Source: Blasia pusilla
Taxonomy: Eukaryota
DNA length: 64,000 bases
Assembly: GCA_050084515.1 (NCBI GenBank)
Contig: CM114271.1
Location: forward strand, 2,108,001-2,172,000
Direction of reading: 5' to 3'
Shown here: one piece after another, positions 1 to 39,500 of the stretch
Layout of the letters: each line of letters opens with the position of its first letter
Numbering within the stretch: position 1 is the stretch's first letter
Made by a program: the position numbers and the translations under genes
Notes under the pieces: model-generated
Seen by the model: the letters and a program-made list of their open reading frames with translations, nothing else
The model's database searches: none
What the model was told of the DNA's origin: nothing

Positions 1-1954
1 CTCTTTGTACTTCCCCTCAATCGCATGTTTCCTCCACCACCCATGAATTTCTTCTTGGCATTCCATGGCCTCTTTCAAGGTTTTGCTATCCTTGCAGCGT
101 TGGAGTAGAGTGACATGCTCTGTCCTCTTATTCTCCTTGATGCAAGATTTGCTGTAGTGGGTCATAGATTGTTGACAATGGAAAGCATCCAACCTTTCTC
201 TCTTCGGTTGAACCTCCCCACCCCAAAACACTTCCCTGATAGCAATCCACCCAGGTTGTGCATTGTCCGCCATGAACCCATAAATTTCCGGAGGTGGCCT
301 TTTTTTTTCCTTCACCACCTCCAATAAGAGTAACCAACACATCTTCAAACTGCCAACGTCTTCTGCTTTTACTTCACAGAAAAATATAGTTTTGAGTCCC
401 TTCTCCACATAGTCATAAACCTGAGCACCCATTGTCAACCATCCGTTCAGCACTCTGTAGCAAATATCAAAGCTTACCCAGCTCCCGTAAAGATCTTCCC
501 CTTCCCTCATTCGATCTATAAGATCGAGGCCACTCGACGGACCTGTCATTGACATTTTGAAGTCATAGGCCGTGGATCCTTCGCCTCCCTGGCCCATGAA
601 CTGCCATCTCTAAATGAATGGAAATCTGGAGTTTGCCCTGATTATTGCAATGGCATCCATTCCGGCCCTCTTTCCATCTAGTACCTGTATTTGACTCAGC
701 AAATTCCGGAAGCATTCAGGATCAGCGAGAGATGCGAGATTTTCCCAGAGTTGTTTCTCCTCAACAACCGTGATCTCGCCTTGTCTAGGGATTCCAAGAA
801 ATTGTTCACAAATTTGTGATGTTGTTGTTAGCTTGATCACTCCAAGCTTTGAACCCGAGAGTTTCTGAAGACCTCGGCCACTTTCTTCGCCACATCCTCC
901 TTGATGTGTCTCTCAATTGCATCGATCACAGGATGAGTGTGGGAGCCAACATGAACTACTAGCCTTGTGTACTCTGACGTGGAGCCCAAGTCGTGGACAA
1001 TGAAAAATATGTATGCAGGACACGCTCCAACGCAAAAAGGGGATGCTTGACAATTAGGTCATCGATGGCCTCCCGGAGGTATGGTGGCATCAACCTCATA
1101 TGGAGTTTATGCATTCTTGGGGGGGAATTGCGACATATTGACCTGCCCGTTGCACTCTAGATAGGGGCATGCTAGACTTCTACACTCTAAGGCTCCAACA
1201 CATTGGCGGCGGGAGACAATCCAGGACCATCTAGAATTGAAGCACTAGTCCGTTAAAGCCTGCACCATCGATGACAATCAGACTTTCTGTCCATACCCTT
1301 CAAGCGTCCTCCATCTTTCTTTTGAGCAGGAGCAGCAAGTGGAGGCAACTCAAAAATATAATTACCATCGTACGTGGACGGCAACTCGTCGAAAAGAATG
1401 TGCTTGAACATTTTCAAGGCGAGAGACGATAGCAAACTATTGCCTGATACTCGTAAGAGGAATGAGTAGGCGGACAGAGGGCCCGGTTGGTGTCCGACCG
1501 ATCCACTGAGGTTGACAACAGCGGGAATTTCTTCAGGAAGTACAACATTGTAACGAACGTGTGAAGTTGGAGTCAATGTCGGATCTATTGAGCTAGGAGT
1601 TGCAAACGTAGAGCTCGGTGCATTAGGAAATTCTCGACCGTCTACTTGGGAAACTAAGGAATTCAGAGGCAAGCCGTAAACTCTGTATTGACCATTTGCT
1701 AGAGGTAGGAGATTCCATACTTTACGGTCTTCAATCACTGGCTGGATTGTCTCACCTATTATGTCCTCCGTACCATCCACCCTAACATCCTTAGACACAA
1801 AGATGGTTCCAATTGGGAGAAGAAATCGAACTGAGAGAAAATTTTCATCCACTGGTATGAAAGACTCACGAGCTTGCGGTCGAATGATTTTGGATTGAGG
1901 AAGGGCCGCTAGATGACTGCCACAAGTGAGCTTCACATAGTTGTCCATTCCCAA
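1..1954 (-). pseudogene. MULE/Mutator-family DDE transposase, disrupted, 3' part runs off window
   Basis: Manual translation of 609->1 is open: WVSFD (D at 466-468) ICYRVLNGWLTMGAQVYD..TIFFCEVKAE..YGFMADNA (D at 265-267)..RERLDAFH. This matches the MULE D..D..CxxH layout. Upstream lie FELPP..GMD..HRW, a Cys-rich segment and VHVGSHTHP (GCM/WRKY-like Zn domain). There is an in-frame TAG at 610-612 and frameshifts. Confidence 0.8.
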
Positions 1955-2020
1955 AAGATTCCACTAGGAGGAGACAGAGAATAAGAATGAGGATAAGAGT
2001 GGGTATGGGAATGAGAATGT

Positions 2021-2030
2021 CCAATTTATA
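2021..2030 (-). promoter_or_regulatory. Putative TATA box of the transposase gene
   Basis: TATAAATTGG on the - strand about 70 bp upstream of the transposase ORF, followed by a CT-rich leader. Confidence 0.4.
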
Positions 2031-2441
2031 GTGAATAGGGACTCAGATTCTCCTGATAGAATTTGACTGACAAGATGAAGTTTGGTAGGTGAGATTGTCT
2101 AACATGATGGGTTTAATTCTGTTGCAACCTGTCAGAGTCCGATGGGTTGCAGAATTTGGGAATCAGAGACGTGGGTTGCGAAGCACCCAGTTCCGTTTTT
2201 TTTTTCCTTGTCCCAATGCAAATTGGAAGCTGTCGGAGTTGGTTGGGTTGGTACCCCCTTCATGCCGACCAATGGTCTTTTGAGACGATTTTGCTAGCAT
2301 CAAACACGAGACATCGCTTGCATTTGCTAAGGTAACTAATTGTTGGGGACTGTTACGGGATTGTCCAACTCAGGGTAGACCTTGGGTACCCGCGCGACCC
2401 ATTGAGGATTACAAGAGGTTACCCGAGGGATAGAAAAGAGT

Positions 2442-2735
2442 GCAACGTGTCTGTAACTGATGAGTTGCCTAGGTACCTTGCCTATTACCCCAAGATGAGG
2501 GAAGCGTGCAACCCGTCGGCCTGCGATAGGTTGCGCAAGTGCCTCGCCTTGTAATGCTTACATGAAGGAAGCGTGCAAATCGTCGGCCTCCGACGAGTTG
2601 CATAGGTACCCCGCCTTGTTATCCCAAGACGAGGGAAGGGTGCAACCCGTCAGTCTTCGATGGGTCGCGCGGGTACCTTGCGTTCTTCCCCCAAGACGGC
2701 GGAGGCGCGCAACCTTTCAGACTCCGACGGGTTGC
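2442..2735. repeat. ~67-bp tandem array (about 4.5 units), each unit carrying the 27-bp palindrome
   Basis: Palindrome-like copies begin at 2442, 2508, 2575, 2642 and 2709. Confidence 0.85.
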
Positions 2736-2878
2736 TTGGATAGTTCGGCTATGACGGATGCCTCCAACCGGTCGGAGACCGTCGGGTTGTGGTTTTCACG
2801 TCTAGACCTCCATAACGGCCTACACGTTGCCGTCGGAACGACGATGCGATCCAATGGTCAGTACAACGGCTAAAAAAT

Positions 2879-2886
2879 TATAAATA
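2879..2886 (+). promoter_or_regulatory. Putative TATA box of the ParB-MTase cargo gene
   Basis: TATAAATA about 190 bp upstream of the ATG at 3076, followed by a telo-box-like TAGGGTTT. Confidence 0.45.
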
Positions 2887-3075
2887 GGCTAGGGTTTGCT
2901 CATTTCAGGTTTTCTGTTTCGCGATCTCGATTGCTCTTCAGCGCAGCAGCGGACCAGATACCAAGGGGCGCTTTACACGGCGACTCATCACGAGATGATT
3001 CAAGTGACTCATCAACGCGACTCATCGTGCACAGAAAGTAATTTCGTTGTCGAGGAGGTGGCATTTTCGGGAACA

Positions 3076-6000
3076 ATGACGAGGAAAAAAACTCAAGCAA
3101 GCAAGGTTGGGAGCTTCACTCCCAAGTCCATGACTCCTGCATCACCATCTCCAAGGCCTCGTTCGGCCAATGAGATAAGGCAGCAAGAGATCGAGGAGCG
3201 TGAAAGGGAAGCAGAGATGCACACACAGGAGCTTCTTGCAGAACGTGTTAAGGAGGCGATTGAAAAATAGAACGCAGAGGCTGAGGCGTCGCAGGCCTTG
3301 AAGAAAAGGATCTCCGAGGAGAAGCGTGAAAAGAAGCGTGTGGACGCGTCGGTGAGGAGAGCAGAATTGGAAAAAGCTTGAAGGAAAAAAGAGATTGCCA
3401 TTGAAGAAAGCTCGGCCCGTCCAACCAAAAGTGTTGAGATGAAGGAAATGTCTCCGATGAAGTCCGGGGACACAATCAATATAAAATCGGCTGAGGAAAC
3501 GGGCAAAGTTCAAGTGACGGACGATGAGGTCATGAGGACCGCCAGTGTGGAGATGGTGGATATCTCTGAAGAAGCAGGAGAGCGGTCTTCCTTGTCTCTT
3601 AGCCCGGCGGAAGAACATCGACCTCTATCGCATTGACGAGTTTCCACAGGACTTGCCAACTGCTATCCCAGACCAGTTGGCGTGCCAAGGCAACAACCCA
3701 ATCTTCGAGCGGGTAAGATACGATCTTTGTTCTTTGAGTTATGTGAAGGCCCATGTTGCAATTCATTGTAGTTTATTGACCTTTTCCCCGTTGTGACACG
3801 TGGTAAAGCAGATGGCACTGATGGAGGGCCAGAACGCCCCAAGAATTCCACTTTGCCGATTGCGGACAATGGAGTAGGTCCGCGAAATTCAGTCTGACGA
3901 GGATATTGCAAAGCTGAAATAATCGGCAACGACAACATCCTACGTTGACAGCTTCCCTCCGTTCTATGTCAACCTTACGATAAACATGGAACCCAAGCGC
4001 TGGTGACGGAGGAGGACTTGGAGGCGCTCGACACATTCTGGAGGATGAGAGATCAGGAATTCACAAGGGCGATTGAGGGGACGGAATTCAGCTGGATGCG
4101 GAACCTGTATTTCTTCATCTAGGATGGAAACCACAGGTTCATGGCATGGACCCAGTTTGCAAAGGAGCGCCAAAACTCATTGGAGGCGTATTTTTGCGTG
4201 AAGGCAGTCGTGCTACATCCATACCCTCATCACATGGCGACGGTGGAGATGGCCTTGCATACCATGAACACTTAAGTTTCCTCTTCCTTTATTTTGATTG
4301 GTGCTAACCGTTGGACTCCGACGAGTTGTTTAACTAGTGGTAACAAAACTCGTCGAAGTCCGACGAGTTGCTTGACTGGATGCTATTTTTTGGATGTTTT
4401 TGGCCGAATGCAACTCGTCGGAGTCCGACGAGTTTCTTGACTGAACGTTGTTTTTTGGATTTTTTTGGCCGAAAGCAACTCGTTGGAGTCCACGAGTTGC
4501 TTGACTGGCCGTTGTTTTTAGGATGTTCTTGGCCAAAAGCCACTCGTCGGAATCCGACAAGTTGCTCAACTGGCCGCTGTTTTAGGATGTTTTTGGTCGA
4601 AAGCAACTCGTCGGAGTCTGACGAGTTGCTTGACTGGCCGCTCTTTTTAGGATTTTTTGGCCGAAAGAAACTCGTCGGACTCCGACGGGTTACATTCGTC
4701 GGCATGGGAAGGTGATCGGAGTAGGGGAGCTTGATTTTTGGCGTCAAATTGCAGCTTTACTTGAAATTGCGCAACCTGTCCAACTTCGACAGGTTGATAT
4801 GTTCACTTTTCTCGCGAAGACCACTCTCTCAATACAAATTATCTGACAACCCGTCGGAGTCCGACGGGTTGAAACTAGGCAATCACAAATCTGAATGCAA
4901 TCCGTCGGACTTCGATGGGTTGCAAAATTTAGCTCGTAGCTACCATTCCAACCATGAGGTGTGACGACCTGTCGGAGTCTAACGGATTGCAGGAACCCAT
5001 ATAGCTCGCAAAATTTCTTATATTGAGTTTGGATGCGCAGGATTGTATCCGAGGGGAATGTCATCCACCATTGGATCCAAGATTGCGATCGGGTGAAGAA
5101 AGTGTTAACGACGCACCCGGCAGAGTACAAGGGGTTCTTGGGCAACGCCCTTGTAAATGAGATGCTAACGAAGGGGGCTCAATTTATTTTTTTTTAAAAG
5201 AAAGACTTGGGCAAATACATTTATTTCCCAAGATGCAGCCGTGACAATCCTTTGCTGGTCGAAGATAAAAGCCGCCAAGAAGAGCGCTTCATTGGAGCTG
5301 GAGCAGAGGGAGAAAATGTATGTGTCTGAGCATGCTAAGTTCATCCAAGCTGCAGTATCTGCAGTTACGAAGTACACTGCAAGCAAGATGCAGCGCTACA
5401 TTGCCATTCTCAACCCCAAACTTGGCCCCGATTTCTACAAGGAGCTGAAGGCGATAATCAAGTGCCAACGGAAGAGGGATGAAGATCCGCAAGGTCGGAT
5501 TGGGGAGAAAGTGTCTCTCGACCGCGTCCATCAATTTGCCTTGCCTGGAATTACGGAATTCAGGAGAATCCGACTGATGAAAATCAGTCTCGAGGGCACA
5601 GAGGCCCAAGAGAGGGCGGCACACCATCCTCTAGGTGTCTCTGATCCAATGATCTCCCACTGGCTCTCGTGAATGGTCATTCTGGGACGCGTTGCGGCTT
5701 CTCCGGAAGTCCATGCTCGTGGGTCTCTAAGCGGAGCTGAAAAAAATAGAGCCAATTTTGGAGGAAGCAAACCTGGAGAGTGCTGAAGATTTTGAACTTG
5801 GGCTAGATGACATGCGAGACAAGCCCATAAAAAACCCAGGCTTCAGGACGATGTTCAAGGATCACATCCTCCCTCAAGCAGACCTTGATGAAGAAATAGA
5901 GGCGAAGAAAAGGGATTTCGCAAAGAAAAAGCGAGATCTTCAGGAGCAGGCGGCCGATGTATCTTGAGTAAGAGCTGCCCAACGCATGGTGTTCAGACAC

Positions 6001-8208
6001 CTCGTCCATTGTAAGAATGCAGGTACGTGGCCAAAAATACCGGTAGCCTATAAATTGTGGGCTTCTCCGCCTGATGGAGAGACATTTTCCATGTACGACA
6101 TGGAGATGGCTCAAAGCATGTCCGACTGGGAGGTGGAGAATTGCCCGATGTGGCTGGACTTCAACAACCATGAGGACATAACCAAGAAAAATCTACGCGT
6201 GCTCTATGATGCAGTGGCCGCAGGTAGGGACGACATTCCCAATTTCGTGTAGCTTGAAGACTTTTTTGAAGGAGATACGGAGGAGCAACCCATCGAGACA
6301 GCGGAGTTGGTGTCCAAGGTCGTCACCGCCAAGGACAAATCTACAGCGGGTCTCAAAGCCAAGGCGAGGGGATCGAAGAATTCCGAGGCCGAGTCTTCCC
6401 AAAAAGAGGCTAAGAATTCAAGGCGAGAGGCGGAATCGTCCGGGCGAGCGGGGAGAGAGGGTCGGACCAGGTCCTCCGCAAAAAAAACTCCACCAGAGTG
6501 TGAGGTAATAGAGACCCCAATAAGCCGACCGCAGACTCGGGAGAAGCGGAAGCGAGAGGCGCCAGGTTTGTCCCACGGAGTAGACCAGGATGTGGAATAC
6601 ACTCCATCATCCTTGGGAAGACATAGGGAAACAACGACCCGGACAAGCGTCATCATTCACTGCACGAATCTTCTGGATGAGCTGAAAAGTTTCAGTTCCC
6701 AAGCATCGATACCCTCCATCGACAAATTGACAACGATGGGACGGAAGCTTCAACAAAATGGGCACGCTCCATGGACGGTCTATGGGGAGGTCGAGGAGGT
6801 GGCGATGGATCTCCTTGTCGCTGATTTTCCCTCGGGGTTGCGCTTGTGGGAGGAGAATCCGTCCGACGGTTTCCCAGACTGGAATGTCCCTCTTTCTTAT
6901 GACCAGATCGCGCTCCTGTTTTCCTTTGCATACGCTTATCTCAGTGACAGGGGCTGTTTCTTGGTTTTGACTGGAAGGAGCGAGGACGAGCTCTTCAACA
7001 TGCAGTGCGTCAAGAGGTTGCTGAAGTGGAGGACGGCGCAATCGTGGGTCATCAAGAACGAGTACCCACTCCGATCCGCGACGAGTCAAATTCGGGTAAG
7101 GGCTCTAAATCCATATCCAAATTTTCTTGCTCCAACTGGTTGCATCTCTGCATGCAACCCATCGGATTGTCTGAGCTGGAGACTTCGGTGGTGCAATCCG
7201 TCTAAAAGCGACGGCTTGCAAATTTACCGCAAGTCTCCATTGGGTGAATGCAACCCGACGGGTTGCAAGTGCTTATGCTTTTCCTTGTGTTTCTGGAATG
7301 ATGCAACCCGTTTGAATATGACGGGTTGCTCTTAGCCAACCATGGGCTGCTCTAAGCCAGCATTCTGCCGCCTTCCGACGGGTTGCTCATGGCAAAAAAA
7401 ATCACTAACACTTGTAAAACAACCCATTGGACTCCGAAAAGTTGCTCCAATGTTAGGACTATAACTAAGTTCTCTGGAGTTAAGCGAAGTTCTTTGGGAA
7501 CGAGTTGCACATTGTGTCACCATTCTGATAGTATACCTTTCTTGTTGTTGCATACTGAAATTAGCTCTTTCTTGTTGCTGACATTTTTTGCAACCTGCTT
7601 CTTTACACATGGACCACTCCTTTGTCTACTATTTTGTAAGGCCCAAGCACAACTTCCAAGTGTTTCAGATCCTCGATCCAGTGGATCCATGCTCTGATGG
7701 GTACAGCTTAGATAGTTTATACAATTCTCCCCCGAGAATTTACATGGAAAATGGTACCCCCTTACTTGGAGGAAGGGAAAATTTGTCGGCATTGATGCAA
7801 ACGCTCATTGAGCTCTGCTCAAGGCCGGGTGACTTGGTGTTCGACTTAGTGGGCCTTTCAGGGGCAAGTATCAGAGGCGCTTGGCAGAGTGGCAGGAACA
7901 TTCTCTACCTTGAGGGAAGGCAAGAACTGTTTGACCTTTGCAAAGAGGCAAAGGCAGATTACGACAGGCTAGTTGGGGCGTAAAACTCTCCTCCAAAGCC
8001 GATAGCTCTGGTTCCAGACCCACCATTGGTAGTGACACCATCGTCACTTCCCATGATTCCCATAATCGGGAGGGCAAGGCTGACAGTAATTCTGGAGGAG
8101 CTCTCAAACGATGACGAGTGAGTTCAAAGAACTCAAGGACCCAGCTTGACTATAGCATTTTGGAGTAGGGATTTATTTGATGACGAGGCAGAAGAATTCA
8201 TAGAATAG
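3076..8208 (+). pseudogene. Spliced cargo gene: coiled-coil N-terminus, ParB/Srx-like domain, helical region, beta-class N6/N4 DNA methyltransferase-like domain
   Basis: Inferred exons are about 3076-3712, 3812-4271, 5041-7095 and 7594-8208; two splice sites are mutated. Exon 2 reads IPLCRL..VR..FYV..FFI*DGNHRFMAW (DGNHR at 4123-4137). Exon 3 ends with MDLLVADFPSGL..PDWN..YAYLSDRGCFLVL (motif IV-like, 6805-6834). Exon 4 has LMQTLIELCSRPGDLVFDLVGLSGASIRGAWQSGRNILYLEGRQELF (motif X-I-II-like). ORFs at 5758, 5986 and 6307 share one frame broken by single TGA/TAG stops. Confidence 0.75.
4345..4693. repeat. ~64-bp tandem array (about 5.4 units) inside cargo intron 2, each unit with the palindrome
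   Basis: GCAACTCGTCGGAGTCCGACGAGTTGC-like copies at 4345, 4410, 4475, 4539, 4603 and 4667, with near-identical spacers. Confidence 0.9.
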
Positions 8209-9288
8209 ATCAAATATACAGTTCCGAGCTTCCTTTGGATGTAATAAAGAACAAGATTTTTTCAAACGATGGTGGTGTTTGTAAAAGTTTGTTGAATATC
8301 TTTTTTAGTCTTGTCGATTGTGATCGTCTATGTACTCCGACACTTCATATTGTAACCCGTCGGATTGCCACAGGTTGCAACTTTTCACTTTTTGACCACT
8401 GCACCTTTTTAACCACTTCTAGGCAACCTGTCGCATTCTGACAGGTTGGCTGTGTGAGTGATTGGACTCTTTCCCTGTTAGTCCAACTTTACAAACATTC
8501 TGGCGGACTTCTTCACTTTGGCACCTTCCCCTAGTTTCGTCAAACAAGTCTTAGGCTTCCTCTCTTCTCTAAGACGTGTTGGATTCCTACTACCTGGCTG
8601 AGGACATGATGGTGTCTCCAAGGACGGAGCACATATTGATACTAGATGGGTGTCACCTTGCAGAGCGTACAAGATTTATTGTCGAGGAAGGCGATGGGAC
8701 TCAAATCAGGTTACATGGGACCGTTATGGTGTACCTAGGGGGGTGCCAAGGCTCTCGAATTCGCCAACATTTTCGATCCCCGTCTACAATCGGCGAGAGG
8801 AGATCACAAATTGTATCTCAGGACATTCCTTTTGTACAGGAACCTAGGAGAGTAAGGTGTAAATTTGTAGATGACGAAGCTGAAGAAATCATGGACTAGA
8901 TCAAATGTACATTCCCGAGCTTCCTTCGGATGTAATACAGGACAAGATTTTTTCAAACGATAATGGTGTTTGTAAAATTTTGCTGAATATTTTTTTTGGA
9001 CTTGTCGATTGTGTTCGTCTAGCTACTCAGAATGTTTATTTTGCAACCCGTCTGACTCCGATGGGTTGCAACTTTTCACTTTTTCACCAGTGCAACTTTT
9101 TAACCATTTCCAGGCAAGCTGTCGGATTCTGACAGGTTGGCTGCTTGAGTGATCATACTCTTTCCCTATGAGACCAACTTCTGAGGCATTGTGGCGGGCT
9201 TCTTCACTTTTGGCTTGTTCCCCTAGTATTGTCAAACCAGTTGTAGGCTTCTTTTCTTCTCTAAGACATGTTGGATTCCTATTGCCTG
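8171..9288 (+). repeat. ~425-bp direct duplication (8171-8597 / 8862-9288) of the cargo gene's last codons and 3' region
   Basis: FDDEAEEFIE* versus VDDEAEEIMD*, then collinear sequence at an offset of about 691 bp, including two palindromes per copy. Confidence 0.85.
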
Positions 9289-9959
9289 TCGGATTGCCAT
9301 TTCGAATTCCCAACGAGTTGGATCTTCGTGAATGCAGGGTGGAATGGAATCACTTCTCAAAATCTTTCCTTTGTTATGGTGAGCTTGCTTGCAAGGGGTG
9401 CAAGCCATCTGATTCGGACGGGTTGCAAGAGTTGCAACCTGTAAAATTCCGACGGATTGGGAGGGGTGCAGCTTCTCGGTTTCTCATATTTAGGATCTGA
9501 ATGAAGGGACATCAATTCCTCTTTACTCCAGACAGCTAACAATCTGTTGGTTCAATTATCGTCTTCTGTGTTCACATTTCACAAAAATGGTCTTTATTTG
9601 AACCTTTCATTGAGATGAGATTGCTACTTCTGGTCACAATATTTGCCAATGGTCCTCCAAAAAAAAAAGCCCTGGGCACAGCTTACTGTAGACTGAGACA
9701 GGCAATGTGAAAAAACTTAGGCTCACATGGAGAGTGATGGGAAAATGTTTGTAGTGGTCTTATGATATCTACTAGTTTTTCGCCCCCTGGAAAAAGGAGG
9801 TTTCTTTAGGCCCAAACGTGGACCACTACCTACTCTCTTCTAAAGATTTCATAAATTTGAAAGCAAACAAAAATTTCAAATATGTCAAAAAGTTTTGAAG
9901 AGAGGAGGCGGATTTGGCCCTTTTTTTTGAAGAGAGACTCTCCTCTCTTCCTCTCTCCT

Positions 9960-11980
9960 ACCAGAATACCAGCCCTCCTCCTAAACTCATGGTAATCATC
10001 CATGGGTGGTCCCTCCAAGTGCTGAAACAACCGCTTCCAAGCCAAGAAGGGTGTAAACAATGTGGCGTTCCGCAACATCTGCATATCATTCCACGTATCA
10101 AACTCCTGAATGAAGTCCTCCAACTCAATGGTGCCCACTACACCCAATTATCGTCATGGGCCCTTCATGGCCCCATACATCCCGTCCATGTCCCAAATCA
10201 ATGGAGCTGCAACACTCGATAACAACGTAGAAGACTTGGTGTTTGGAACACCCTCGTCCTCCTCTTCATCAACCGTCGGAAGTGGAAAAGGTAGCTGATA
10301 CCTCAATCCACTCCGTGTAAAACCACCACTGTCCGCACCACGGTCCCCAACCAGGTCACCAGACAGCTTCGTGATGACCAACGCCGATGTCGCACCACCA
10401 CCAAATCACCACCACTAAGTAACCAAGTGACGTCGATGTCGATGTACTATTCTAGCTCTACTAGCTATGGGTGTGGGCAACCTAACCTATCATCACCACA
10501 AGAAGCCTCCCACGGTCTACTCGTCATCACTCCAGTCTCACTGTGAGAGAAACAAATGAAGTTTGACTGGTCATCACTCCAACCTCACTACCCGTAGCAC
10601 ACAGGAGTAAAACTACTCTGGAAATCAGCATCAGCCCTAACAATGGGCGCCCAAGCAAGAAGCAATGATGGAGGGGATCCAAATACATGAAGTCCAACAA
10701 CAACCCTCCAATCGCAACTGGAAGTACAAAATGAAAATCAAGGTAACACAATCCACCAAACGTGGTGCCCCCTCAATCCACAGAACCAACCACACAATTC
10801 TAACGCAATGGTTACTCTGCCGGTGGTCGATGACGTGCTAGTCGCACTTGCAACACCTGAAAATATCACCTGCATAGAGAGTCCACACCGTACTATGCGC
10901 TAGAGGTCCATCAACCAAAAACCCGAGATGCATAAAAGCGCCTAATGCATCTCCAAATAACACCAAATGAGCTACATCAGTGTGTACACTGACATAGTTA
11001 AGTACTCAGCAGTTAAGCATCTTCCAGGCAGAATAGCCCAAAGATGGGTGACCAGTTATGCAACACTCAACTCACAAATCCTGCAAAAACTGCCTCACGC
11101 CCAAGCAAGCAAGCTTGCTTGCGCCTTGCTCCTTGCTCCTTACTTCGCCTCAAACGCCCACTCGCCCCGAGCTACCACGAGTTGCCTCGAAGCCTCGAAA
11201 CAACATGCTCGAGACATGCCCGTTCTTGCCCCGTTCGCCACGCTTTGCTATGGAGAGAGGCCCAGACAGGGCGCCTCCAACGGGATAGGCGTCTCCAACA
11301 ACAGACGAGTCACCAACCAACCAGCCCCTCCGATCTGCTGTCCACCATAGCCACACCTTGAGCTAGTCCGCAAAATTTTGACCAACGATAACTCCACAAA
11401 TCCTCGACCAAAATTGAATCTATTTCAACGAGAATTCAATTGGTCACCATATTCCATACATGCGTATTGGCAACATCGCAAGCACAATGGGTGCTAGAGA
11501 GCGGGATCGGATGTTGTGCGAATCCACATCGTCATACAACATACATCGTTGACATACCAGACTCACATACATACATAACATAGAGGAGAGCATACACAAA
11601 CACAAGTGTACCACAACTGAAATCCGTGAAAGATTCTATACGTGTGTAAAACACGTATAGAATCACATACAATCGAGCCAAACCCACTCCACGATGGGAG
11701 AATCCAGGTCGAAGCTTTCGAAAACCACCATAGCCAAGAGCTCTACTCACTACCAAGGCTAACTCCCAACGCAACACGCTCAACTCAAAGAACTAACTGT
11801 TCTTTGAGTACACTCCACACTATACCCTCCAACCTAAGGGTGGGCCCTATTGGAAAAGTCACCCTCAACGGAGTAACCCCCAACCCTATGTATGAAACCG
11901 CATCCCTACCTACACACTAAGGCCCTACATAAGGTATGACCTCTACTAGCACACTATACTCTATGACATAATCCGTATGG
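9960..11980 (-). mobile_element. Ty3/gypsy remnant: LTR-like segment (~11530-11980), leader and gag fragment
   Basis: Gag-like ELEDFIQEFDTW..FTPFLAWKRLFQHLEGPPMDDYHEF at 9970-10147. The stretch 11530-11720 is reverse-complement similar to LTR sequence at 14050-14280. Boundaries are approximate. Confidence 0.5.
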
Positions 11981-11989
11981 TCATGACAC

Positions 11990-14350
11990 GGATCCTACAA
12001 CGAGCCAGATGGTTTTGGTAGGAGGGGACATATATGTTGCAAGTTTGGGAGGATGGTAGAGTGCGTGTAGTGCCCCATCCTTCGTAGAGAGCACGTTTGG
12101 TGTGGTATGCCCACAAGGAGTTGGGTCATTTTGGAGTGAAGCGCACATACAACTTGCTCCAGATACAACATTGATGGCGAGGCATGCAGACTGAGGTTCA
12201 ACAGCTTGTTGCCATGTGCATGGTGTATGATCAAGTCCGAGCATCGTTCAATGCTCCGACTCCACACTTGCATCCACTTCCGATCATGGGTTTAGGTTAT
12301 AGATGGAGTTTGGATTTTGCAGGACCTTTGCCTTTGACGGAGCGCCATAGTCATTATGTGTTGTTGATGGTTGAGCACTTCTCGAAATGGATAGATTTGG
12401 TTGCATTGCCTGACAAAGCAAGTGAGGGAGTAGCATATGCCTTCCTAGATTGAGTTCTGAGTCATTACGGCCCACCAACTAAGGTGTGACACAGCAAGGT
12501 ACAGAGTTTTGCGGGGAGTTTCAGGCCTTGTGTGATCAGGCGCTGATCAACCCACACACCACTTCGCGTGATCATCCTGAGGCAGATGGACTAGCGGAGA
12601 GGGTTGTGCAGATGGTGAAGAGAGGATTACGCAAGTATGGCTTGCACAGAGGTCACCTAAGAGATTGGGACCTTCAGTTGCCGTGGTTGGCGATGGGATA
12701 CAGATTCAGCAGGCAGGCATCCTTAGCGTCTTTCTCACTGTACTTGCTACTTTATGGCTGAGAGCCAGATTTACCTACGGCCATTCGTCGAGATATTGGT
12801 GAGGTGTTGAACCTTGATGACCTTAATGTATGGATGCGAGCATGTTCTTAGAGGGCTGAGTTGTTTCGGAGAGTGATGCCCATGGCGTTTAAGAACTTGG
12901 CGATTGCGCAGCATCGGCATACATTGAGGTATGTGACTATTCGGGGAGGTGGTTATCGACCTACTATCCGGAGGTTTCATTAGGGAGACTATGTCTACTT
13001 GCAACAAACGGCACCTACCATGTTGGATGTGACTGGTGGGTGCACCATCTTGAGAGTGCATGAGATTTTGCCATCTGATGTTCTCTTATTGGAGGGACGC
13101 GATGGTATGGTTTGGAAGGACCATATGCATAACTGTGCACCATGTCATCTTCCAAACATTGACGATACAGTTGATTCAAGCTTAGCAGTAGTTCCTACAT
13201 GCTTGCGGTGTATGTTGTGTGGTTCGGCCCGTGGCGCAACCACTATGCTAGTCTGTGATGGGTGTTTCAGAGGATGGCATATGGCATGTCTCACACCACC
13301 TCTTACTAGGGTTCTTGAGGGACGATAGATGTGTCCTAGATGTACATAGAGTAGGGAGTTCTAGATTCCAACTTGTGTTTGTGACATGGATGACAAGAAG
13401 GCAACTAACGATGGGGCCACATGAGCACTCGGCCTTTTTGCTCTTAGCGTCCGACAGATGTATGTCATTGTAGGTAGGGATAGATGGCTATCTCGAGTTA
13501 GAGGGACCTAACCACCAGCTAGGGGGAAAATTGGAGATATTTTGGTACTTCTTGTCTCATTTTTTAGATACCATGAGTTAGCATGGAACCGTGTGTGTTT
13601 GTGTGTATGTTTGGCGATAGCGATGTATATTGTATAGCGATGTGTATATGCACGACAATTATCACGATTTTTTTTTATATATCGGAGAGATCTGGTAGAG
13701 TTCCTTTGCAAGTAGAGGAGGACAGGCTCAAGAGGTCGAGGATGACCTGCAGAAGTCACATGTTTCCCCTTCGTTTTGGCTCATTTGGAGCCATATAGAG
13801 AAACTTACTATTCGGGTAAGTTTCCATTTAGAGCATAGTTGAATTTCTACTTTGGGAAGTAACCCTTGACCTGCTACAGTAGGTCAAGAGCCAAGGAGGT
13901 GACCTACGAACATAGGTTACCGAGGAGAGAGCTTGGGAGAGGGAAGGGGGTATACCTCAAGGAGAGAGAGCTTGAGAACTCATTCTCTCTTTATTGAACC
14001 TCTTGGCACAAGATGGCGGAGTTATGGTCCCTTCCCTTGTGAGTGTAACCCAAACCTCTCATTAGGAGAGTGGGTTTGGTTTGACATTGAGAGAGAGTGC
14101 ACACATTTGAGAGTTATGGTGTTGAGAAAGATTGGATCTACTTGATTTAATTGGAGATATTTTGGTACTTCTTGTCTCGTTGTTTGGATACCATGAGTTA
14201 GCATGGGATCGTGTGTGTTTGTGTGTATGTTTGGTGACAACGATGTATGTTGTGTAGCGATGTGTATGTGCACGATAGCTTGAAGATGTGTAGTTGAAGG
14301 TATGAGATCCAAACTTGGAGTGGAACCCTTGGAGGATATATGTAACATCA
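11990..14350 (+). mobile_element. Ty3/gypsy 3' remnant: integrase with C-terminal PHD finger, PPT and 3' LTR
   Basis: HHCC zinc finger (GHFGVKRT..C), core WSLDFAGPLP..EHFSKW..QGTEF..HPEADGLAER and PHD at 13209-13346. PPT AGGGGGAAAA at 13521-13530. LTR-like TG(13532)...CA(14350) with an internal ~130-bp repeat (13531/14151). Many stops and frameshifts. Confidence 0.85.
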
Positions 14351-36548: not shown

Positions 36549-39500
36549 TGTGGAAAACTGCTAAACAAGCATAATTGGTGGAAAACGGCTCTCACACATA
36601 CACCCCACCATGGAGAACGAAATTTGCAATGAGAGAATGAGTGGAGGCTGGTTCCCTTCTCAATTATATAGGGTATGTACAAGCAAACCTAACCTTAACC
36701 TTAACCATAGTCTCGAGTTAGACTAACTGTGATTAACTAACCTAGTTAAGATAATGTGTTTTAGCCTGACTAACCAAGATTAAGCTTTCCTACTTAGTTG
36801 AGTACCAAATATAGATTCAGGTGTCTCATGATTGTAACTCAATCTTCAATACTCCCCCTCAAGCTCATATCAATATCTGTAACACCTAAATCATTTTTAA
36901 ACATCTCAAACTTATCTCTAGACAATGCCTTTGTAAAGATGTCATCAATTTGCTTATGATTATTAGCAAGCTTGATGCTACTAATTTTTTCTGCATATAT
37001 TACACTAGGTCCTAAGTTACTAACACCAATCTTAACAAGTAATCGATGAAGCCACACCGCCTCACATGCTGCATGAGTTGCTCCTCTGTACTTAGCCTCT
37101 GTTCAAGATAAAGCAACTATAGGTTGCTTCTTTGAAGCCCAACTTATAGCTGCGCTTCCCAAAATAAATGAGTAACCAGATGTGGAGTGTCGATCACACA
37201 TATTTCTTGCCCAATCAGCATAAGTGTATCCCTGTAATTGAAAACTCATAGAAGGTTCAAATTGAAGCCCGAATTGAATAGAGAATTTTAAATACCGCAT
37301 AATCCTCCTCACGGCATCAAGGTGAGGTTTTCGAGGTGCTTGCATAAACTGGCTCACTAGGCCAACAACATAGCTCAAATCTGGTCTGGTTATAGTTAGA
37401 TAGATTAAACTTCCAACCATGCGCTTGTATATATTAGAATCTGCAAGCAACTCTCCTTCATCCACTCTTAGCTTCACACTCTGGTCCAACGGTGTAGAGA
37501 TTGGCTTACAAGCCGTCATACCATATTTTGAAAGCATATGAAGAGCATATTATCGTTGTAGTAACCACATGCTCTCTCCAACCTTGATAAACTCTATATC
37601 AAGGAAGTACTTGAGTTCTCCCAAGTCCTTCATATCAAATTCTGCTTGTAACTTAAGCTTGACTTATTGTACCATTTCTTCAATACTGCCAGTAATCAGG
37701 AGATCGTCAATATACAACACAATGAGAACTGTATGATCTTTTCCTCTCAAGAAATATAACCAGGAGTGAGAATCACATACCCTAAAACCCAATTCTTGTA
37801 GGACCTATGTAATCTTGCCATACCAAGCTCTTGGAGCTTGTTTGAGTCCGTATAGAGCTTTCTTCAACCTGCATACGCGAAATGGAAACTTGGGATGCTC
37901 GTATCGAGGTGGTTGAGTCATATATACCTCCTCGTATAGATCTCCATTCAAGAAGGAATTCTTGACGTCCATCTAATATAATCTCCACTTCTTACTTACT
38001 GCAACTGCAACCACTGTTGTCATAGTCGCCATCTTTGCAACAGGGCTAAATGTTTCTTCATAATCAATGCCATATTGTTGTGCATAGCCCTTAGCCACCA
38101 ATCTCGCTTTGTATCTATTAATTGTACCATCTTGATTACGCTTGATTTTGTAAACCCATTTGTAACCAATAGCTTCCTTACCATAAGGTATATCAACCAG
38201 CTCCTATGTCTGTTGATGTCTTAATTCAGCAAGCTCTTCCTCCATAGCTTCAATCCATTCGACTTTACTTGCAGCTTCTTCAAAGCATTTCGGCTCTTGT
38301 TCTTGAAGGGTAGTCATTATATATGCATGATGTATCACAAAAAAACCTTCATTTATGAATCTATGAAGTGGATGTATAACTCTACTTGATCTACGAAGTT
38401 GTTGTTTAGAGGTAGATGTCTCTGACATTTGACTCGAGCTTTGACTAGTGTCAACACATTGAATACGTACGCTTCCCATCCATGGACTCATAGATTTAAC
38501 TGATGAATCTAGGACCTCTCCTAATCCTGCACTAGTACTTGGGGGAGTTGAAGATAATGTCTGTCGGTTTACAATCATATTCTCCCCCTCAATAGACGAG
38601 TTTAGAGGTAGAATAGGCTCAGATGGAGCATACCATGACTTTAGCTCATCAAAGACAACATCCCGACTAATAATAAGCTTCCTAAATGATCGAATGTAGC
38701 ACTTGTACCCCTTAGTTCCATCAGCATAGCCAATGAAGATACATTTTTCAGACTTATTTTCAGACTAATTTTTGACGTATCTCTGAAGGAACATGGGCAT
38801 AACAAATACAACCAAATATTTTCAAGAAAGAAAAATCAGGCTTACTTCTTGTGAAGACTTCAAATGGAGTTTTATCATGAACTCCTGTTGTTGGAGTTCG
38901 GTTGATTAAGAAGAGTGCACATGCTATAGCCTCTGCCCAATACACCTTAGGCATGTTCTTCTCATTTAGCATAGCTCGTGCCGCTTCAGCAATATGTCGA
39001 TTCTTCCTCTCAACCACTCTATTTTTTTGTGGAGTGTAACGGCAAGTCACTTGACGTTGGATGCCATTCTGAAGTAAATAGTCATCAAACTCTGTTGAAA
39101 GATACTCTCCTCCTCCATCACAACGCAATTTCAGAATGTGTTCTCTAGTCTACTTCTCTACTAGAACTCTGAATGTTTGGAACACTGAGAATACCTCTGA
39201 CTTGGCTTTTAGAAAGTATACCCATATATACTTAGAGAAGTCATCAATAAATGAAATAAAGTACTGGTAATCTCTAAGGCTATGTTGTGATGCCTTCCAC
39301 ACATCAATATGGATCAACTCCAATATCATGGATGCTCTTCTTCCTTGCTTAGGAAAAGGAAATCTAGCTTGTTTTCCAAATTGGCAAGCAAGACATACCT
39401 CTAACGTAACAGGACTTGCTAATTTTAGGGAGTCCTATTACTATATTAGATGATGAAAGACTCTGTAATCTTTGAAGATTCATATGTCCAATTCTTTTAT

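What the first reader, a model, noticed from the sequence alone, without database searches (positions are those of the whole stretch)
1..9830. Candidate transposon-encoded epigenetic system: MULE transposase + ParB-like/amino-MTase fusion + repeated palindromic cis-sites
Seen: a MULE DDE transposase and a divergent spliced gene with ParB-like and beta-class DNA-MTase-like domains. The intergenic spacer, introns and 3' region hold about 25 copies of one palindrome, which I did not notice past about 9460. Established: Arabidopsis VANDAL MULEs encode VANC proteins that bind short motifs accumulated in the element's own non-coding repeats and counter silencing. Bacterial ParB loads at palindromic parS sites, and ParB-N/MTase fusions occur in phages. 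Inference: this may be an independent, prokaryote-derived self-marking or anti-silencing module in which the cargo protein recognises the element's palindromes. I cannot confirm from here that it is undescribed, and this copy is dead.
Basis: partly seen in the sequence, partly recalled or inferred. Interest (0 to 1): 0.92.

Follow-up and report, generated by a model that had tools for sequence, protein, structure and literature searches.

The report
Plant transposon carrying methylase-like cargo
This is a dead copy of a very abundant plant jumping gene that carries, beside its transposase, a gene resembling a bacterial DNA-methylating enzyme, and its non-coding DNA holds about two dozen copies of one 27-letter mirror-symmetric word, which suggests but does not prove that the element manages its own epigenetic state.

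Summary
A 27-bp dyad, GCAACCCGTCGGA-N-TCCGACGGGTTGC, occurs 23 times between 2124 and 9426 and nowhere else in the 64 kb. All 23 units lie in non-coding DNA. The last exon of the plus-strand gene is a beta-class N6/N4 DNA-methyltransferase C-terminal half. The preceding exon looks like the matching N-terminal half, but the catalytic motif reads D-[L/F]-P-x, not (D/N/S)PP(Y/F), in 3 of 3 family members.

The ParB/Srx-like part rests on a DGNHR motif and one sub-threshold Pfam hit. The transposase is Mutator-like only by language-model neighbours, because Pfam gave no hit. Raw reads show a high-copy, diverged family, and this copy's frameshifts are private to it. The only protein relatives among 1.84 billion representatives are two liverwort (Riccia) hypothetical proteins.

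The idea that the cargo binds the palindromes and marks or de-silences the element remains an untested inference. The degenerate catalytic motif argues against an active methylase. I rate this a new variant of a known kind (accessory gene plus cis-motif arrays, as in VANDAL/VANC), interest 0.6.

The parts
1..1963 (-). Remnant of the transposase gene (Mutator-like). It has no introns, at least about 650 codons, and runs off the window at base 1. The long open pieces are 1253-1963, 837-1058, 610-912 and 1-609.
   Evidence: The frames of the pieces (1963, 1058, 912 and 609 mod 3 = 1, 2, 0, 0) are joined exactly by the two bases that most family reads have and this copy lacks: +A behind 1222 in 650 of 842 reads, and +G behind 856 in 469 of 709 reads. 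The nearest ESM clusters to 1-609 are ZSWIM1-3 RNaseH-like/MULE at 0.95. Pfam gave no hit.
1964..3075 (.). Spacer between the two divergent genes. It holds 6 palindrome units (2124, 2508, 2575, 2642, 2709, 2764) and a 67-bp tandem array at 2459-2735.
   Evidence: Read depth here is the lowest of the element (116-144x), and an array-length variant (joint 2514->2689, 31 reads) occurs in other copies.
3076..3715 (+). Putative first exon of the cargo. It starts at ATG 3076 and is Lys/Glu-rich low complexity. It is broken by stops (ORF ends at 3270 and 3381) and a frame change. A GT donor follows 3715.
   Evidence: Read from the sequence and translations. That this exon belongs to the gene is an inference.
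3810..4275 (+). Putative second exon, the ParB/Srx-like piece. It carries DGNHR at 4123-4137, an in-frame TAG at 4120-4122 and a private 1-nt deletion behind 3968.
   Evidence: Translations are. Pfam DUF1015 matched at E 7e-4, below its cut-off, over residues that include DGNHR. +T behind 3968 appears in 157 of 233 reads, which restores the frame 2 to frame 1 transition. All other searches were negative.
4276..5232 (+). Putative intron 2. It holds 9 palindrome units (4303-4990) and a 64-bp tandem array at 4347-4691.
   Evidence: An AG acceptor precedes 5233.
5233..7095 (+). Long exon. It has a family-specific, mostly helical region, then the N-terminal half of the methyltransferase-like domain (6748-7095). 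The motif IV position reads DFPS at 6823-6834. The exon has a frame change near 5670 and stops at 5728, 5965 and 6250.
   Evidence: It is collinear with Riccia proteins P0001 (residues 30-485) and P0002 by tblastn, E 3e-17 to 7e-16. phmmer gave E 2e-11 and 1e-10. Motif evidence is in the alignment. hhalign placed it in the right register. Atlas neighbours of the P0001 counterpart are methyltransferases.
7096..7668 (+). Putative intron 3 (GT at 7096-7097, AG at 7667-7668). It holds 3 full palindrome units (7193, 7303, 7419) and further half or shortened units (7154, 7250-7266, 7375).
   Evidence: Both Riccia gene models end at this exon boundary. RNA reads cover 7631-7674, so the acceptor is not settled.
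7669..8121 (+). Last exon, the C-terminal half of the beta-class methyltransferase-like domain. The motif I region, FDLVGLSGAS, lies at 7840-7869. The stop at 7981-7983 is private to this copy, and the family frame runs on to TGA at 8119-8121.
   Evidence: Position 7983 reads A>C (TAA to TAC) in 475 of 493 DNA reads.
8122..9460 (+). 3' non-coding region with 5 full palindrome units (8352, 8423, 9043, 9114, 9400) and a degenerate one at 9434-9460. It contains an internal duplication, 8179-8596 against 8870-9288 (83% identical).
   Evidence: Other copies and their RNA lack 8176-8616 (joints 8130/8175->8617 occur in both DNA and RNA).
9461..9979 (.). Tail up to the probable right boundary of the element. 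There are no palindromes here. A different high-copy repeat starts at 9979.
   Evidence: 700 DNA reads have a common loose end just before 9979, and depth doubles beyond it. No TIR could be defined, because the left end lies outside the window.

Best explanation
Window 1 to about 9979 is a decayed copy of a high-copy, two-gene, Mutator-like DNA transposon of a land plant. The only protein relatives found are in Riccia liverworts.

Two genes diverge from a 1.1-kb spacer. On the minus strand lies an intronless transposase. On the plus strand lies a multi-exon accessory ('cargo') gene. Its product ends in a bacterial/phage-type beta-class (N6_N4_Mtase-like) amino-methyltransferase fold with a very short target-recognition region. 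This fold is preceded by a family-specific helical region and probably, some 950 bp upstream, by a ParB/Srx-superfamily module.

The catalytic tetrapeptide is D-[L/F]-P-x in all three known members. I therefore think the domain is more likely a DNA- or cofactor-binding pseudo-enzyme, or an enzyme with altered chemistry, than a standard 6mA/4mC methylase.

The 27-bp CpG-rich dyad fills the promoter spacer, both large introns and the 3' region, and has partly multiplied as 64-67-bp tandem repeats. I read it as a cis-acting protein-binding site of the family. The most likely binder is a dimer of the accessory protein, which would concentrate on the element's own non-coding DNA and modulate its chromatin or methylation state and expression, as VANC does on VANDAL21.

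Shown: the palindromes, the methyltransferase-like C-terminal half, the high copy number, and the private nature of this copy's breaks.

Inferred: the gene model and the ParB-MTase fusion, Mutator membership, binding of the palindromes by any element protein, and any epigenetic effect.

My odds are as follows. Anatomy as described, 0.85. ParB/Srx module real, 0.6. Palindromes are protein-binding cis sites, 0.6. The binder is the cargo protein, 0.35-0.4.
For: Palindromes. 23 of 23 full units lie inside 2124-9426 and in non-coding stretches, against 0 expected by shuffling. Conservation stops at the edges of the 27-mer although the flanks differ between about 14-16 contexts. So the word itself, and not a larger repeat, has been kept or multiplied. 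Arrays vary in length between copies (joints 2514->2689 and 4871->4406), as VANC target arrays do (PMC5735166).

Base pairing is not what is conserved. Double changes occur in 9 cells against 5.7+-2.0 in shuffles, with 47 of 500 shuffles as high. That fits a double-stranded protein site better than a hairpin.

Cargo. The methyltransferase C-terminal half is recognised by four libraries and two tblastn searches. The motif order, IV before I, is the beta-class order (and profile positions).

Family. Of 41,722 DNA reads laid, 35,551 are 90-95% alike. Depth is 115-440x over spacer and cargo and 575-1200x over the transposase, while only 230 reads are at least 99% alike.

RNA. Reads of the orientation expected for sense transcripts cover the last cargo exon and 3' region (depth 9-16 at 7601-8000 in three runs) and the transposase (1-10).

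Bacterial precedent. ParB-methylase fusions exist, for example B. cereus Bce_0392 (PMC5512222, passage read).
Against: No experiment or computation here links the protein to the palindromes.

The ParB-like call rests on one motif and one sub-threshold hit. No DNA-binding helix-turn-helix was detected, and Pfam found nothing in P0001 or P0002 at E<=10.

The ParB-like exon and the methyltransferase exons are not shown to be one transcript. No cargo intron joint was among the 15 listed, and RNA depth over 5201-7200 is at most 5.

The two Riccia gene models contain neither the ParB-like part nor the motif I exon.

The transposase is 3-10 times deeper in reads than the spacer and cargo, so cargo-less relatives may dominate the family.

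Both structure predictions were unusable, with pLDDT 42.6 and 40.2.

The closest phage methylases are methyltransferase-only and lack ParBc.
Confidence: 0.4

Rival explanations
1. The palindromes are binding sites of the transposase (or serve transposition or transposase-gene regulation), like the sub-terminal and promoter-proximal TnpA motifs of En/Spm. On this reading the cargo acts elsewhere or not at all on them.
For: Six units sit in the shared promoter spacer next to the transposase start. The transposase piece 837-1058 shows a C..C...HxH pattern typical of WRKY/FAR1-type DNA-binding fingers, read. The transposase is the most abundant and best-kept part of the family. The En/Spm comparison is recalled, not read here.
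Against: 17 of 23 units lie inside or behind the cargo gene, in its introns and 3' region, far from any terminus. No half-site occurs in the last 500 bp before the probable right end. The zinc-finger reading has no Pfam support.
Confidence: 0.2
2. The palindromes have no protein partner. They are self-propagating or slippage-prone minisatellite and dyad sequences, or hairpin-forming DNA or RNA that the host's silencing machinery targets, and they accumulate in non-coding DNA only because coding DNA cannot tolerate them.
For: Two clusters are plain tandem arrays. Array length varies between copies, and palindrome-centred strand-switch joints are seen in DNA reads (4411/4847 and 7101/7401 'opposite strands'). 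The arms are CpG-rich and decay by transitions, as methylated DNA does.
Against: The 27-mer is conserved with sharp edges in about 14-16 different sequence contexts, not only within arrays. There is no significant compensatory change, so pairing is not under selection. A one-sided T six bases after the dyad in 20 of 23 units is not expected of a pure hairpin or slippage product.
Confidence: 0.2
3. The cargo is a passenger. It would be a gene of bacterial or phage descent captured once by a Mutator-like element (Pack-MULE-style) and carried along without function for the element, with its methyltransferase fold already inactive.
For: Motif IV is degenerate in 3 of 3 members. The cargo is 3-5 times less deep than the transposase. 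RNA over most cargo exons is near zero.
Against: The family is old and diverged: Riccia relatives are only 30-34% identical, yet they keep the same blocks, with 24 invariant columns over 133. Most reads lack at least two of this copy's breaks in the cargo (+T behind 3968, and TAA to TAC at 7983), so open copies probably exist. The last exon is transcribed.
Confidence: 0.15

Closest known systems
VANDAL21 (Hiun) Mutator-like elements of Arabidopsis with the anti-silencing protein VANC21 (PMC5735166; abstract and passages read; PMC10398659 abstract seen)
   Same: Both are Mutator-type elements with accessory gene(s) beside the transposase. In both, one short motif is packed at high density in the element's own introns, intergenic and terminal non-coding DNA, partly as tandem repeats whose length differs between copies.
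   Different: No sequence relation of the cargo to VANC was found or tested. The motif here is a 27-bp dyad and not a 9-bp asymmetric word. The cargo has a methyltransferase-like fold of prokaryotic type. Binding and loss of methylation are shown for VANC and not shown here.
Bacterial and phage beta-class N6/N4 DNA methyltransferases (Pfam PF01555), e.g. phage N15 gp52, Morganella phage IME1369_02 methylase, M.RsrI, DpnA; and ParB-methylase fusions such as B. cereus Bce_0392 (PMC5512222, passage read)
   Same: The C-terminal motif I region is similar at 30-37% identity over 64-87 residues. The order is the same, motif IV region first and motif I last. If the ParB/Srx piece is real, the N-to-C domain order is also that of ParB-methylase fusions.
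   Different: Motif IV is D-[L/F]-P-x and not DPPY/SPPY. Only about 40-60 residues separate the two halves, against 150-200 in the phage enzymes aligned. A 330-residue family-specific region is inserted between the ParB-like and methyltransferase-like parts. The gene is interrupted by introns and sits in a eukaryotic transposon. The closest phage hits carry no ParBc domain.
Eukaryotic N4-cytosine methyltransferases of bacterial descent: Marchantia MpDN4MT1a/b (bioRxiv 10.1101/2021.02.12.428880, passages read) and bdelloid rotifer N4CMT (PMC8885841, listing and abstract only)
   Same: Both are beta-type amino-methyltransferase folds of prokaryotic origin in a eukaryote, and one of them is in a liverwort.
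   Different: Those enzymes keep TSPPY/SPPY and are host genes with shown 4mC activity. The present family lacks the motif, is transposon-borne and has hundreds of copies.
Transposon-borne DNA-modification domains: the inactive PCIF1-like methyltransferase domain of DIRS1 retrotransposons (PMC4738411, passage read) and TET/JBP genes on KDZ transposons of fungi (recalled, not read)
   Same: In each case a mobile element carries a nucleic-acid-modifying fold, and in DIRS1 the catalytic residues are lost.
   Different: The enzyme classes and transposon classes differ. No dedicated palindromic site arrays are described for those systems, as far as I read.
Phage ParB-methyltransferase fusions with dispersed 23-29-bp palindromes
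   Same: In both, a mobile genome encodes a ParB-like plus methyltransferase protein and carries 10-28 copies of one 23-29-bp dyad.
   Different: Those are phage genomes with clear ParB and methyltransferase domains. Their binding claim is itself only an inference. The exact 27-mer consensus has 0 matches in the viral, prokaryotic-genome and metagenome collections.

Membership tests
Mutator/MULE superfamily of DNA transposons | DDE RNase-H-like transposase recognised by the MULE profile (Pfam PF10551 or related) | tested here: inconclusive
   Pfam found no MULE, DBD_Tnp_Mut or FAR1 hit at E<=1 on any ORF piece. The ESM Atlas neighbours of 1-609 are ZSWIM1-3 RNaseH-like/MULE clusters (0.95, 167 shared features), and all ten best family-bearing hits belong to one family or clan. 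The AF2 model was unusable.
Mutator/MULE superfamily of DNA transposons | Terminal inverted repeats and 8-11-bp target-site duplication | not testable with these tools
   The left end lies beyond base 1, no genome is held, and there is no second copy in the window.
Beta-class N6/N4 amino-methyltransferases (Pfam PF01555 N6_N4_Mtase) | Profile match at or above the curated cut-off | tested here: not met
   The score was 16.8 bits against a cut-off of 26.7 (E 0.0067), covering only profile positions 169-220 of 221. P0001 and P0002 had no Pfam hit. Coherent sub-threshold support comes from PHROG, PADLOC, PDB and tblastn.
Beta-class N6/N4 amino-methyltransferases (Pfam PF01555 N6_N4_Mtase) | Catalytic motif IV (D/N/S)-P-P-(Y/F/W) | tested here: not met
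   The motif reads DFPS (window), DLPT (P0001) and DLPK (P0002), so 0 of 3 are canonical. hhalign places it opposite the DPPY of phage enzymes.
Beta-class N6/N4 amino-methyltransferases (Pfam PF01555 N6_N4_Mtase) | Permuted motif order: IV-VIII, short recognition region, then motif I (FxGxG) at the C-terminus | tested here: met
   The motif IV-like block lies at 6823-6834 and the motif I-like block at 7840-7869, on the same strand and in the same frame. The C-terminal half aligns to the last 50 profile positions, and the N-terminal half aligns to residues 23-123 of a 351-aa phage enzyme.
Beta-class N6/N4 amino-methyltransferases (Pfam PF01555 N6_N4_Mtase) | SAM-dependent methyl transfer to DNA | not testable with these tools
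   This needs an assay with an intact copy.
ParB/Srx superfamily (Pfam ParBc PF02195 and relatives) | Profile match to a superfamily member | tested here: inconclusive
   There was no ParBc hit. DUF1015 matched at E 7e-4, 19.0 bits against a cut-off of 25.8, over residues 16-76 of the read-through piece. DUF1015 resembles the serine kinase SbnI by Foldseek (bioRxiv 10.1101/2024.10.14.618325, passage read). That SbnI has a ParB/Srx fold is recalled, not read.
ParB/Srx superfamily (Pfam ParBc PF02195 and relatives) | Conserved G-x-x-R / DGxHR nucleotide-binding motif after a beta-strand | tested here: met
   LYFFI-(stop)-DGNHRFMAW is read directly at 4105-4149. A chance DGxHR somewhere in six frames of 10 kb is roughly a 1-in-10 event by my estimate, so this alone is weak.
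ParB-CTPase/parS systems | Helix-turn-helix next to the N-terminal domain that reads a palindromic parS, with loading and spreading | not tested
   No HTH family was detected in the 330-residue middle region. Binding cannot be computed here.
VANC-type anti-silencing systems | Element-encoded protein shown to bind motif arrays in the element's non-coding DNA and to remove methylation | not testable with these tools
   Only the cis-side layout is met. No homology to VANC was sought, because no VANC sequence was at hand.

The most novel reading that the evidence does not exclude
A bryophyte Mutator-like transposon family has taken over a whole phage-type module: a ParB/Srx-methyltransferase protein together with its parS-like palindromic docking sites. 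It uses this module to load a clamp or (pseudo)methylase along its own non-coding DNA, and so marks or shields itself from the host's 5mC silencing. This would be an independent, prokaryote-derived counterpart of the VANC anti-silencing system and a eukaryotic use of ParB-type site-specific loading.
Probability: 0.15. Interest if true: 0.9.

Novelty: new variant of a known kind. Interest (0 to 1): 0.6.

Why it matters
How transposons fight or steer epigenetic silencing is known in molecular detail for very few systems, mainly VANC and Spm TnpA, and all of these are in seed plants. This element has a recognisable DNA-enzyme fold of bacterial or phage descent and a long, easily assayed 27-bp site present in hundreds of genomic copies. 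It therefore offers a directly testable candidate in an early-diverging land-plant lineage.

A positive result would show convergent evolution of self-directed epigenetic control using prokaryotic parts. It would also give a first function for a eukaryotic ParB-like/methyltransferase-like protein. A negative result would still document an unusual, lineage-restricted passenger gene, with only two relatives among 1.84 billion representative proteins.

Tried and rejected
Homology searches that found nothing:
- The word-indexed search found nothing with ORF 6253-7335 against longer proteins, nothing with ORF 1-609 against longer proteins, and only the query itself with P0001.
- A profile of the N-terminal methyltransferase half had 0 hits against PDB sequences. 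tblastn of it against phages gave only chance hits at E>=4.
- The ParB-like piece had no phage match, only chance plasmid hits at E>=0.9, chance PDB hits at E 0.8, and nothing in PHROG, NCBIfam or PADLOC.

Structure and complex predictions:
- The complex prediction of N-half plus C-half plus SAM gave no verdict (score 0.15).
- AlphaFold2 of P0001 with a 5-row alignment reached pLDDT 42.6.
- AlphaFold2 of ORF 1-609 alone reached pLDDT 40.2.
- Both models are too poor for fold searches, so none was run.

Searches for related loci and for the palindrome:
- Related loci for the cargo: 0 confirmed in the prokaryote-genome, viral and metagenome collections.
- The exact 27-mer consensus had 0 matches in the same three collections. 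This copy itself has no perfect unit, so exact search is insensitive.
- The two 12-nt half-site strings appear in 2 unrelated papers only.

Sequencing runs and genome: no RNA holder was listed in the run index. No genome is held for the window.

Earlier scan notes: nothing was found by place or by sequence.

Ideas rejected:
- Selection for hairpin pairing is rejected, because covariation is not above shuffles.
- A special meaning of the central GANTC (the CcrM/HinfI site) is rejected. It is present in only 13 of 23 units, and GANTC density is 4.7 per kb in the element against 3.3 per kb elsewhere.
- Exons are not better kept than non-coding DNA across copies. The 3' non-coding region is as deep as the exons, so no selection claim is made.
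- The joints 8130/8175->8617 are not an intron, because they occur in DNA reads too.

Full report
WHAT IS THERE

The window is eukaryotic repeat-rich DNA, and no whole genome is held for it. The first 10 kb contain two divergently oriented gene remnants.

On the minus strand, four long open pieces (1253-1963, 837-1058, 610-912, 1-609) make up one intronless gene that runs off the window at base 1. Their frames are 1, 2, 0 and 0, taking the first-base coordinate mod 3. These frames are connected exactly by two single bases that most reads of the family have and this copy lacks: +A behind 1222 (650 of 842 reads) and +G behind 856 (469 of 709 reads).

On the plus strand the exon-like blocks are 3076-3715, about 3810-4275, 5233-7095 and 7669-8121. 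They are separated by stretches that begin with GT (or a mutated GT) and end with AG.

THE PALINDROME

The word GCAACCCGTCGGA-N-TCCGACGGGTTGC is real and far beyond chance. There are 8 matches at 3 mismatches or fewer, against 0 in 100 shuffles. The half-site has 20 matches, against a shuffled mean of 0.06. There are 23 full units with at most 3 mismatches per arm and an invariant 1-nt centre, all between 2124 and 9426. A degenerate 24th unit lies at 9434-9460.

None occurs in the other 54 kb of the window. At 2 mismatches or fewer per half-site, 37 of 38 matches are inside 2000-9500, and blastn finds no piece of the element elsewhere in the window.

All 23 units lie in non-coding stretches:
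- 6 in the spacer between the two genes
- 9 in the 4276-5232 intron
- 3 in the 7096-7668 intron
- 5 in the 3' region

Two clusters are tandem arrays with periods of 67 and 64 bp.

Information content drops to background at both edges of the 27-mer, although the units sit in some 14-16 different flanking contexts. The word itself is therefore the conserved unit. An unexplained asymmetry is a T six bases after the dyad in 20 of 23 units.

Compensatory change between the arms is not above expectation: 9 double-changed cells against 5.7+-2.0, with 47 of 500 shuffles as high. I therefore do not think a hairpin is what is selected. Most variant positions are transitions at the four CpGs of the unit, as expected of methylated, decaying DNA.

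THE CARGO

An exhaustive phmmer search of 1.84 billion representatives with ORF 6253-7335 found two proteins only (E 2e-11 and 1e-10). They are hypothetical proteins of the liverworts Riccia sorocarpa and R. fluitans.

tblastn shows the window is collinear with the longer one, P0001, from 5382 to 7098. It crosses one frame change near 5670 and three in-frame stops at 5728, 5965 and 6250. Both Riccia models stop at the same exon boundary as the window's 7095/7098.

The last exon is a recognisable C-terminal half of a beta-class DNA amino-methyltransferase:
- Pfam N6_N4_Mtase E 0.0067, positions 169-220 of 221, below the cut-off
- three PHROG DNA-methyltransferase families at E 1e-4 to 2e-3
- ten PADLOC methyltransferase models
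- M.RsrI and DpnA as best PDB sequences, E 0.13-0.7
- 287 phage and 263 plasmid records by tblastn, best E 3e-4 and 7e-4; no listed row names anything other than a DNA methylase, though a few rows carry no annotation or only a gene number

The closest phage proteins, including N15 gp52, are N6_N4_Mtase-only and have no ParBc domain.

The exon before it should be the N-terminal half. It has no significant sequence hit, but hhalign lays it on phage methylases in the expected register. The block containing motif IV falls on their DPPY block, the 'LSDRGCFLVL' block falls on their 'LKPNGSLYLF' block, and E is 0.2. For the equivalent part of P0001, every named language-model or structure neighbour is a class-I methyltransferase: MTS, UPF0020, N6_N4_Mtase, with TM 0.52-0.55.

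The order of motif IV before motif I is the beta-class order.

Two features depart from working enzymes. The catalytic tetrapeptide is DFPS, DLPT and DLPK in the three members. Only about 40-60 residues lie between the halves, where phage relatives have 150-200.

THE PARB-LIKE PART

Upstream, at 3810-4275, the frame restored by the family's +T behind 3968 (157 of 233 reads) reads a hydrophobic strand followed by DGNHRFMAW. This is the G-x-x-R box pattern of the ParB/Srx superfamily.

The only statistical support is a sub-threshold hit to DUF1015 (E 7e-4). A 2026 preprint relates DUF1015 by structure to the kinase SbnI. That SbnI is ParB/Srx-like is my recollection. All other searches were blank.

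I put the ParB/Srx reading at about 0.6. That this exon is fused to the methyltransferase exons is unproven: the Riccia models do not include it, and no splice joint was listed.

THE TRANSPOSASE

Pfam finds nothing in it. The ESM Atlas puts ORF 1-609 next to ZSWIM1-3 RNaseH-like/MULE clusters (0.95). The sequence shows D...D spacing and a C..C...HxH finger-like stretch. I call it Mutator-like with about 0.75 confidence. TIRs and TSD are out of reach.

THE FAMILY

I laid about 1% of a whole-genome run of the same species label, and three RNA runs, on 1-12000 at 90% identity or better. This placed 41,722 DNA reads: 230 are at least 99% alike, 5,941 are 95-99% alike and 35,551 are 90-95% alike.

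Summed depth by region:
- 575-1204x over the transposase
- 116-175x over the spacer and first exon
- 145-438x over the rest of the cargo and the 3' region
- 456-1314x over a different repeat beyond 9979

The reads that are at least 99% alike allow at most about 3x for single-copy DNA. My inference is that the element family has at least on the order of a hundred cargo-bearing and several hundred transposase-bearing copies. The cargo is therefore part of a repeated element and not a neighbouring host gene.

Coverage is continuous from transposase to 3' end, which is consistent with linkage in many copies. But the 3-10-fold excess of transposase reads leaves room for cargo-less relatives.

Several of this copy's breaks are private: +G behind 856, +A behind 1222, +T behind 3968, and TAA to TAC at 7983 in 475 of 493 reads. 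Open copies therefore probably exist.

RNA reads of the orientation expected for sense transcripts cover the last cargo exon and the 3' region. Depth is 9-16 at 7601-8000 and 9-12 at 8401-8800. They cover the transposase weakly (1-10), and the long cargo exon has depth of 5 or less.

HOW IT MOST LIKELY WORKS

The cis side is strongly reminiscent of VANDAL21. There, VANC21 binds a short motif packed in introns, intergenic and terminal non-coding DNA, and the motif multiplies by tandem repeats (PMC5735166).

My best reading, at 0.4 overall, is that the 27-bp dyad is a protein-binding site of the family and that the accessory protein is its most likely reader. The protein may act as a dimer, as many beta-class methyltransferases and ParB proteins do, and would influence the element's chromatin or expression.

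Because motif IV is degenerate in all three members, I favour binding or clamp-like action over ordinary 6mA/4mC deposition.

The rivals are transposase binding (0.2), no protein partner (0.2) and a functionless passenger gene (0.15). The rivals overlap and are not mutually exclusive.

COMPARISON AND NOVELTY

Known relatives in kind:
- VANC/VANDAL
- bacterial ParB-methylase fusions (Bce_0392; PMC5512222)
- chlorophyte and chytrid ParB-HTH-Dam fusions and the inactive methyltransferase of DIRS1 elements (PMC4738411)
- host 4mC enzymes of Marchantia and rotifers

My literature searches found no description of a land-plant transposon with such a cargo or of this palindrome. These were, which gave listings and abstracts only and had no access to supplements.

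Earlier AI notes of this scan report phage genomes in which ParB-methyltransferase fusions co-occur with dispersed 23-29-bp palindromes. That is an untested lead, not evidence.

I file this as a new variant of a known kind, with interest 0.6. The boldest reading is a prokaryote-derived ParB/methyltransferase-plus-site module used for self-directed epigenetic control. I give it 0.15.

Noticed in passing
window 9979-12000: A different, more abundant and transcribed repeat starts at 9979. 700 DNA reads share one loose end just before it, and DNA depth is 466-1314x. A joint 11988->11512 ('goes back 477') is seen in 474 DNA reads and in 83-112 reads of each RNA run, so most copies carry this roughly 477-bp unit in tandem or as a circle or LTR-type junction. 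A 47-bp indel polymorphism lies at 10518-10583.
   Followed up: no
window 2124-9426, position +6 after each palindrome: A T stands six bases downstream of the dyad in 20 of 23 units (13 of about 16 independent contexts), while the mirror position upstream is not conserved. This gives the otherwise symmetric site a polarity, the same on the plus strand throughout. It is unexplained.
   Followed up: partly
window 8179-8596 and 8870-9288: An internal duplication (83% identical over 419 bp) carries two palindrome units each. Other family copies and their transcripts lack 8176-8616 (joints 8130/8175->8617 occur in both DNA and RNA reads).
   Followed up: partly
window 3857-3893: All three RNA runs hold 32-49 reads that match only this 36-nt stretch, with unrelated sequence on both sides and two fixed differences (3877 G>T and 3884 G>A in 133 of 133 RNA reads with first mate on the plus strand, against 107 of 584 DNA reads at the two sites together). 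An expressed gene elsewhere shares a short piece with the ParB-like exon region.
   Followed up: no
window 38204-38764 (-) and 43784-44470 (+): These are retrotransposon debris: a retroviral-polymerase SH3-like domain (E 1.2e-15) and a weak reverse-transcriptase match (E 3e-5, below the cut-off). The other six long ORFs tested in 9500-64000 had no Pfam hit.
   Followed up: no
window 4405-4438 / 4665-4698, 7101 / 7401: DNA reads show strand-switch joints centred on palindrome units (4411/4847 with 59 reads; 7101/7401 with 44 reads). These are either true inversions between units in other copies or library artefacts at dyads.
   Followed up: no
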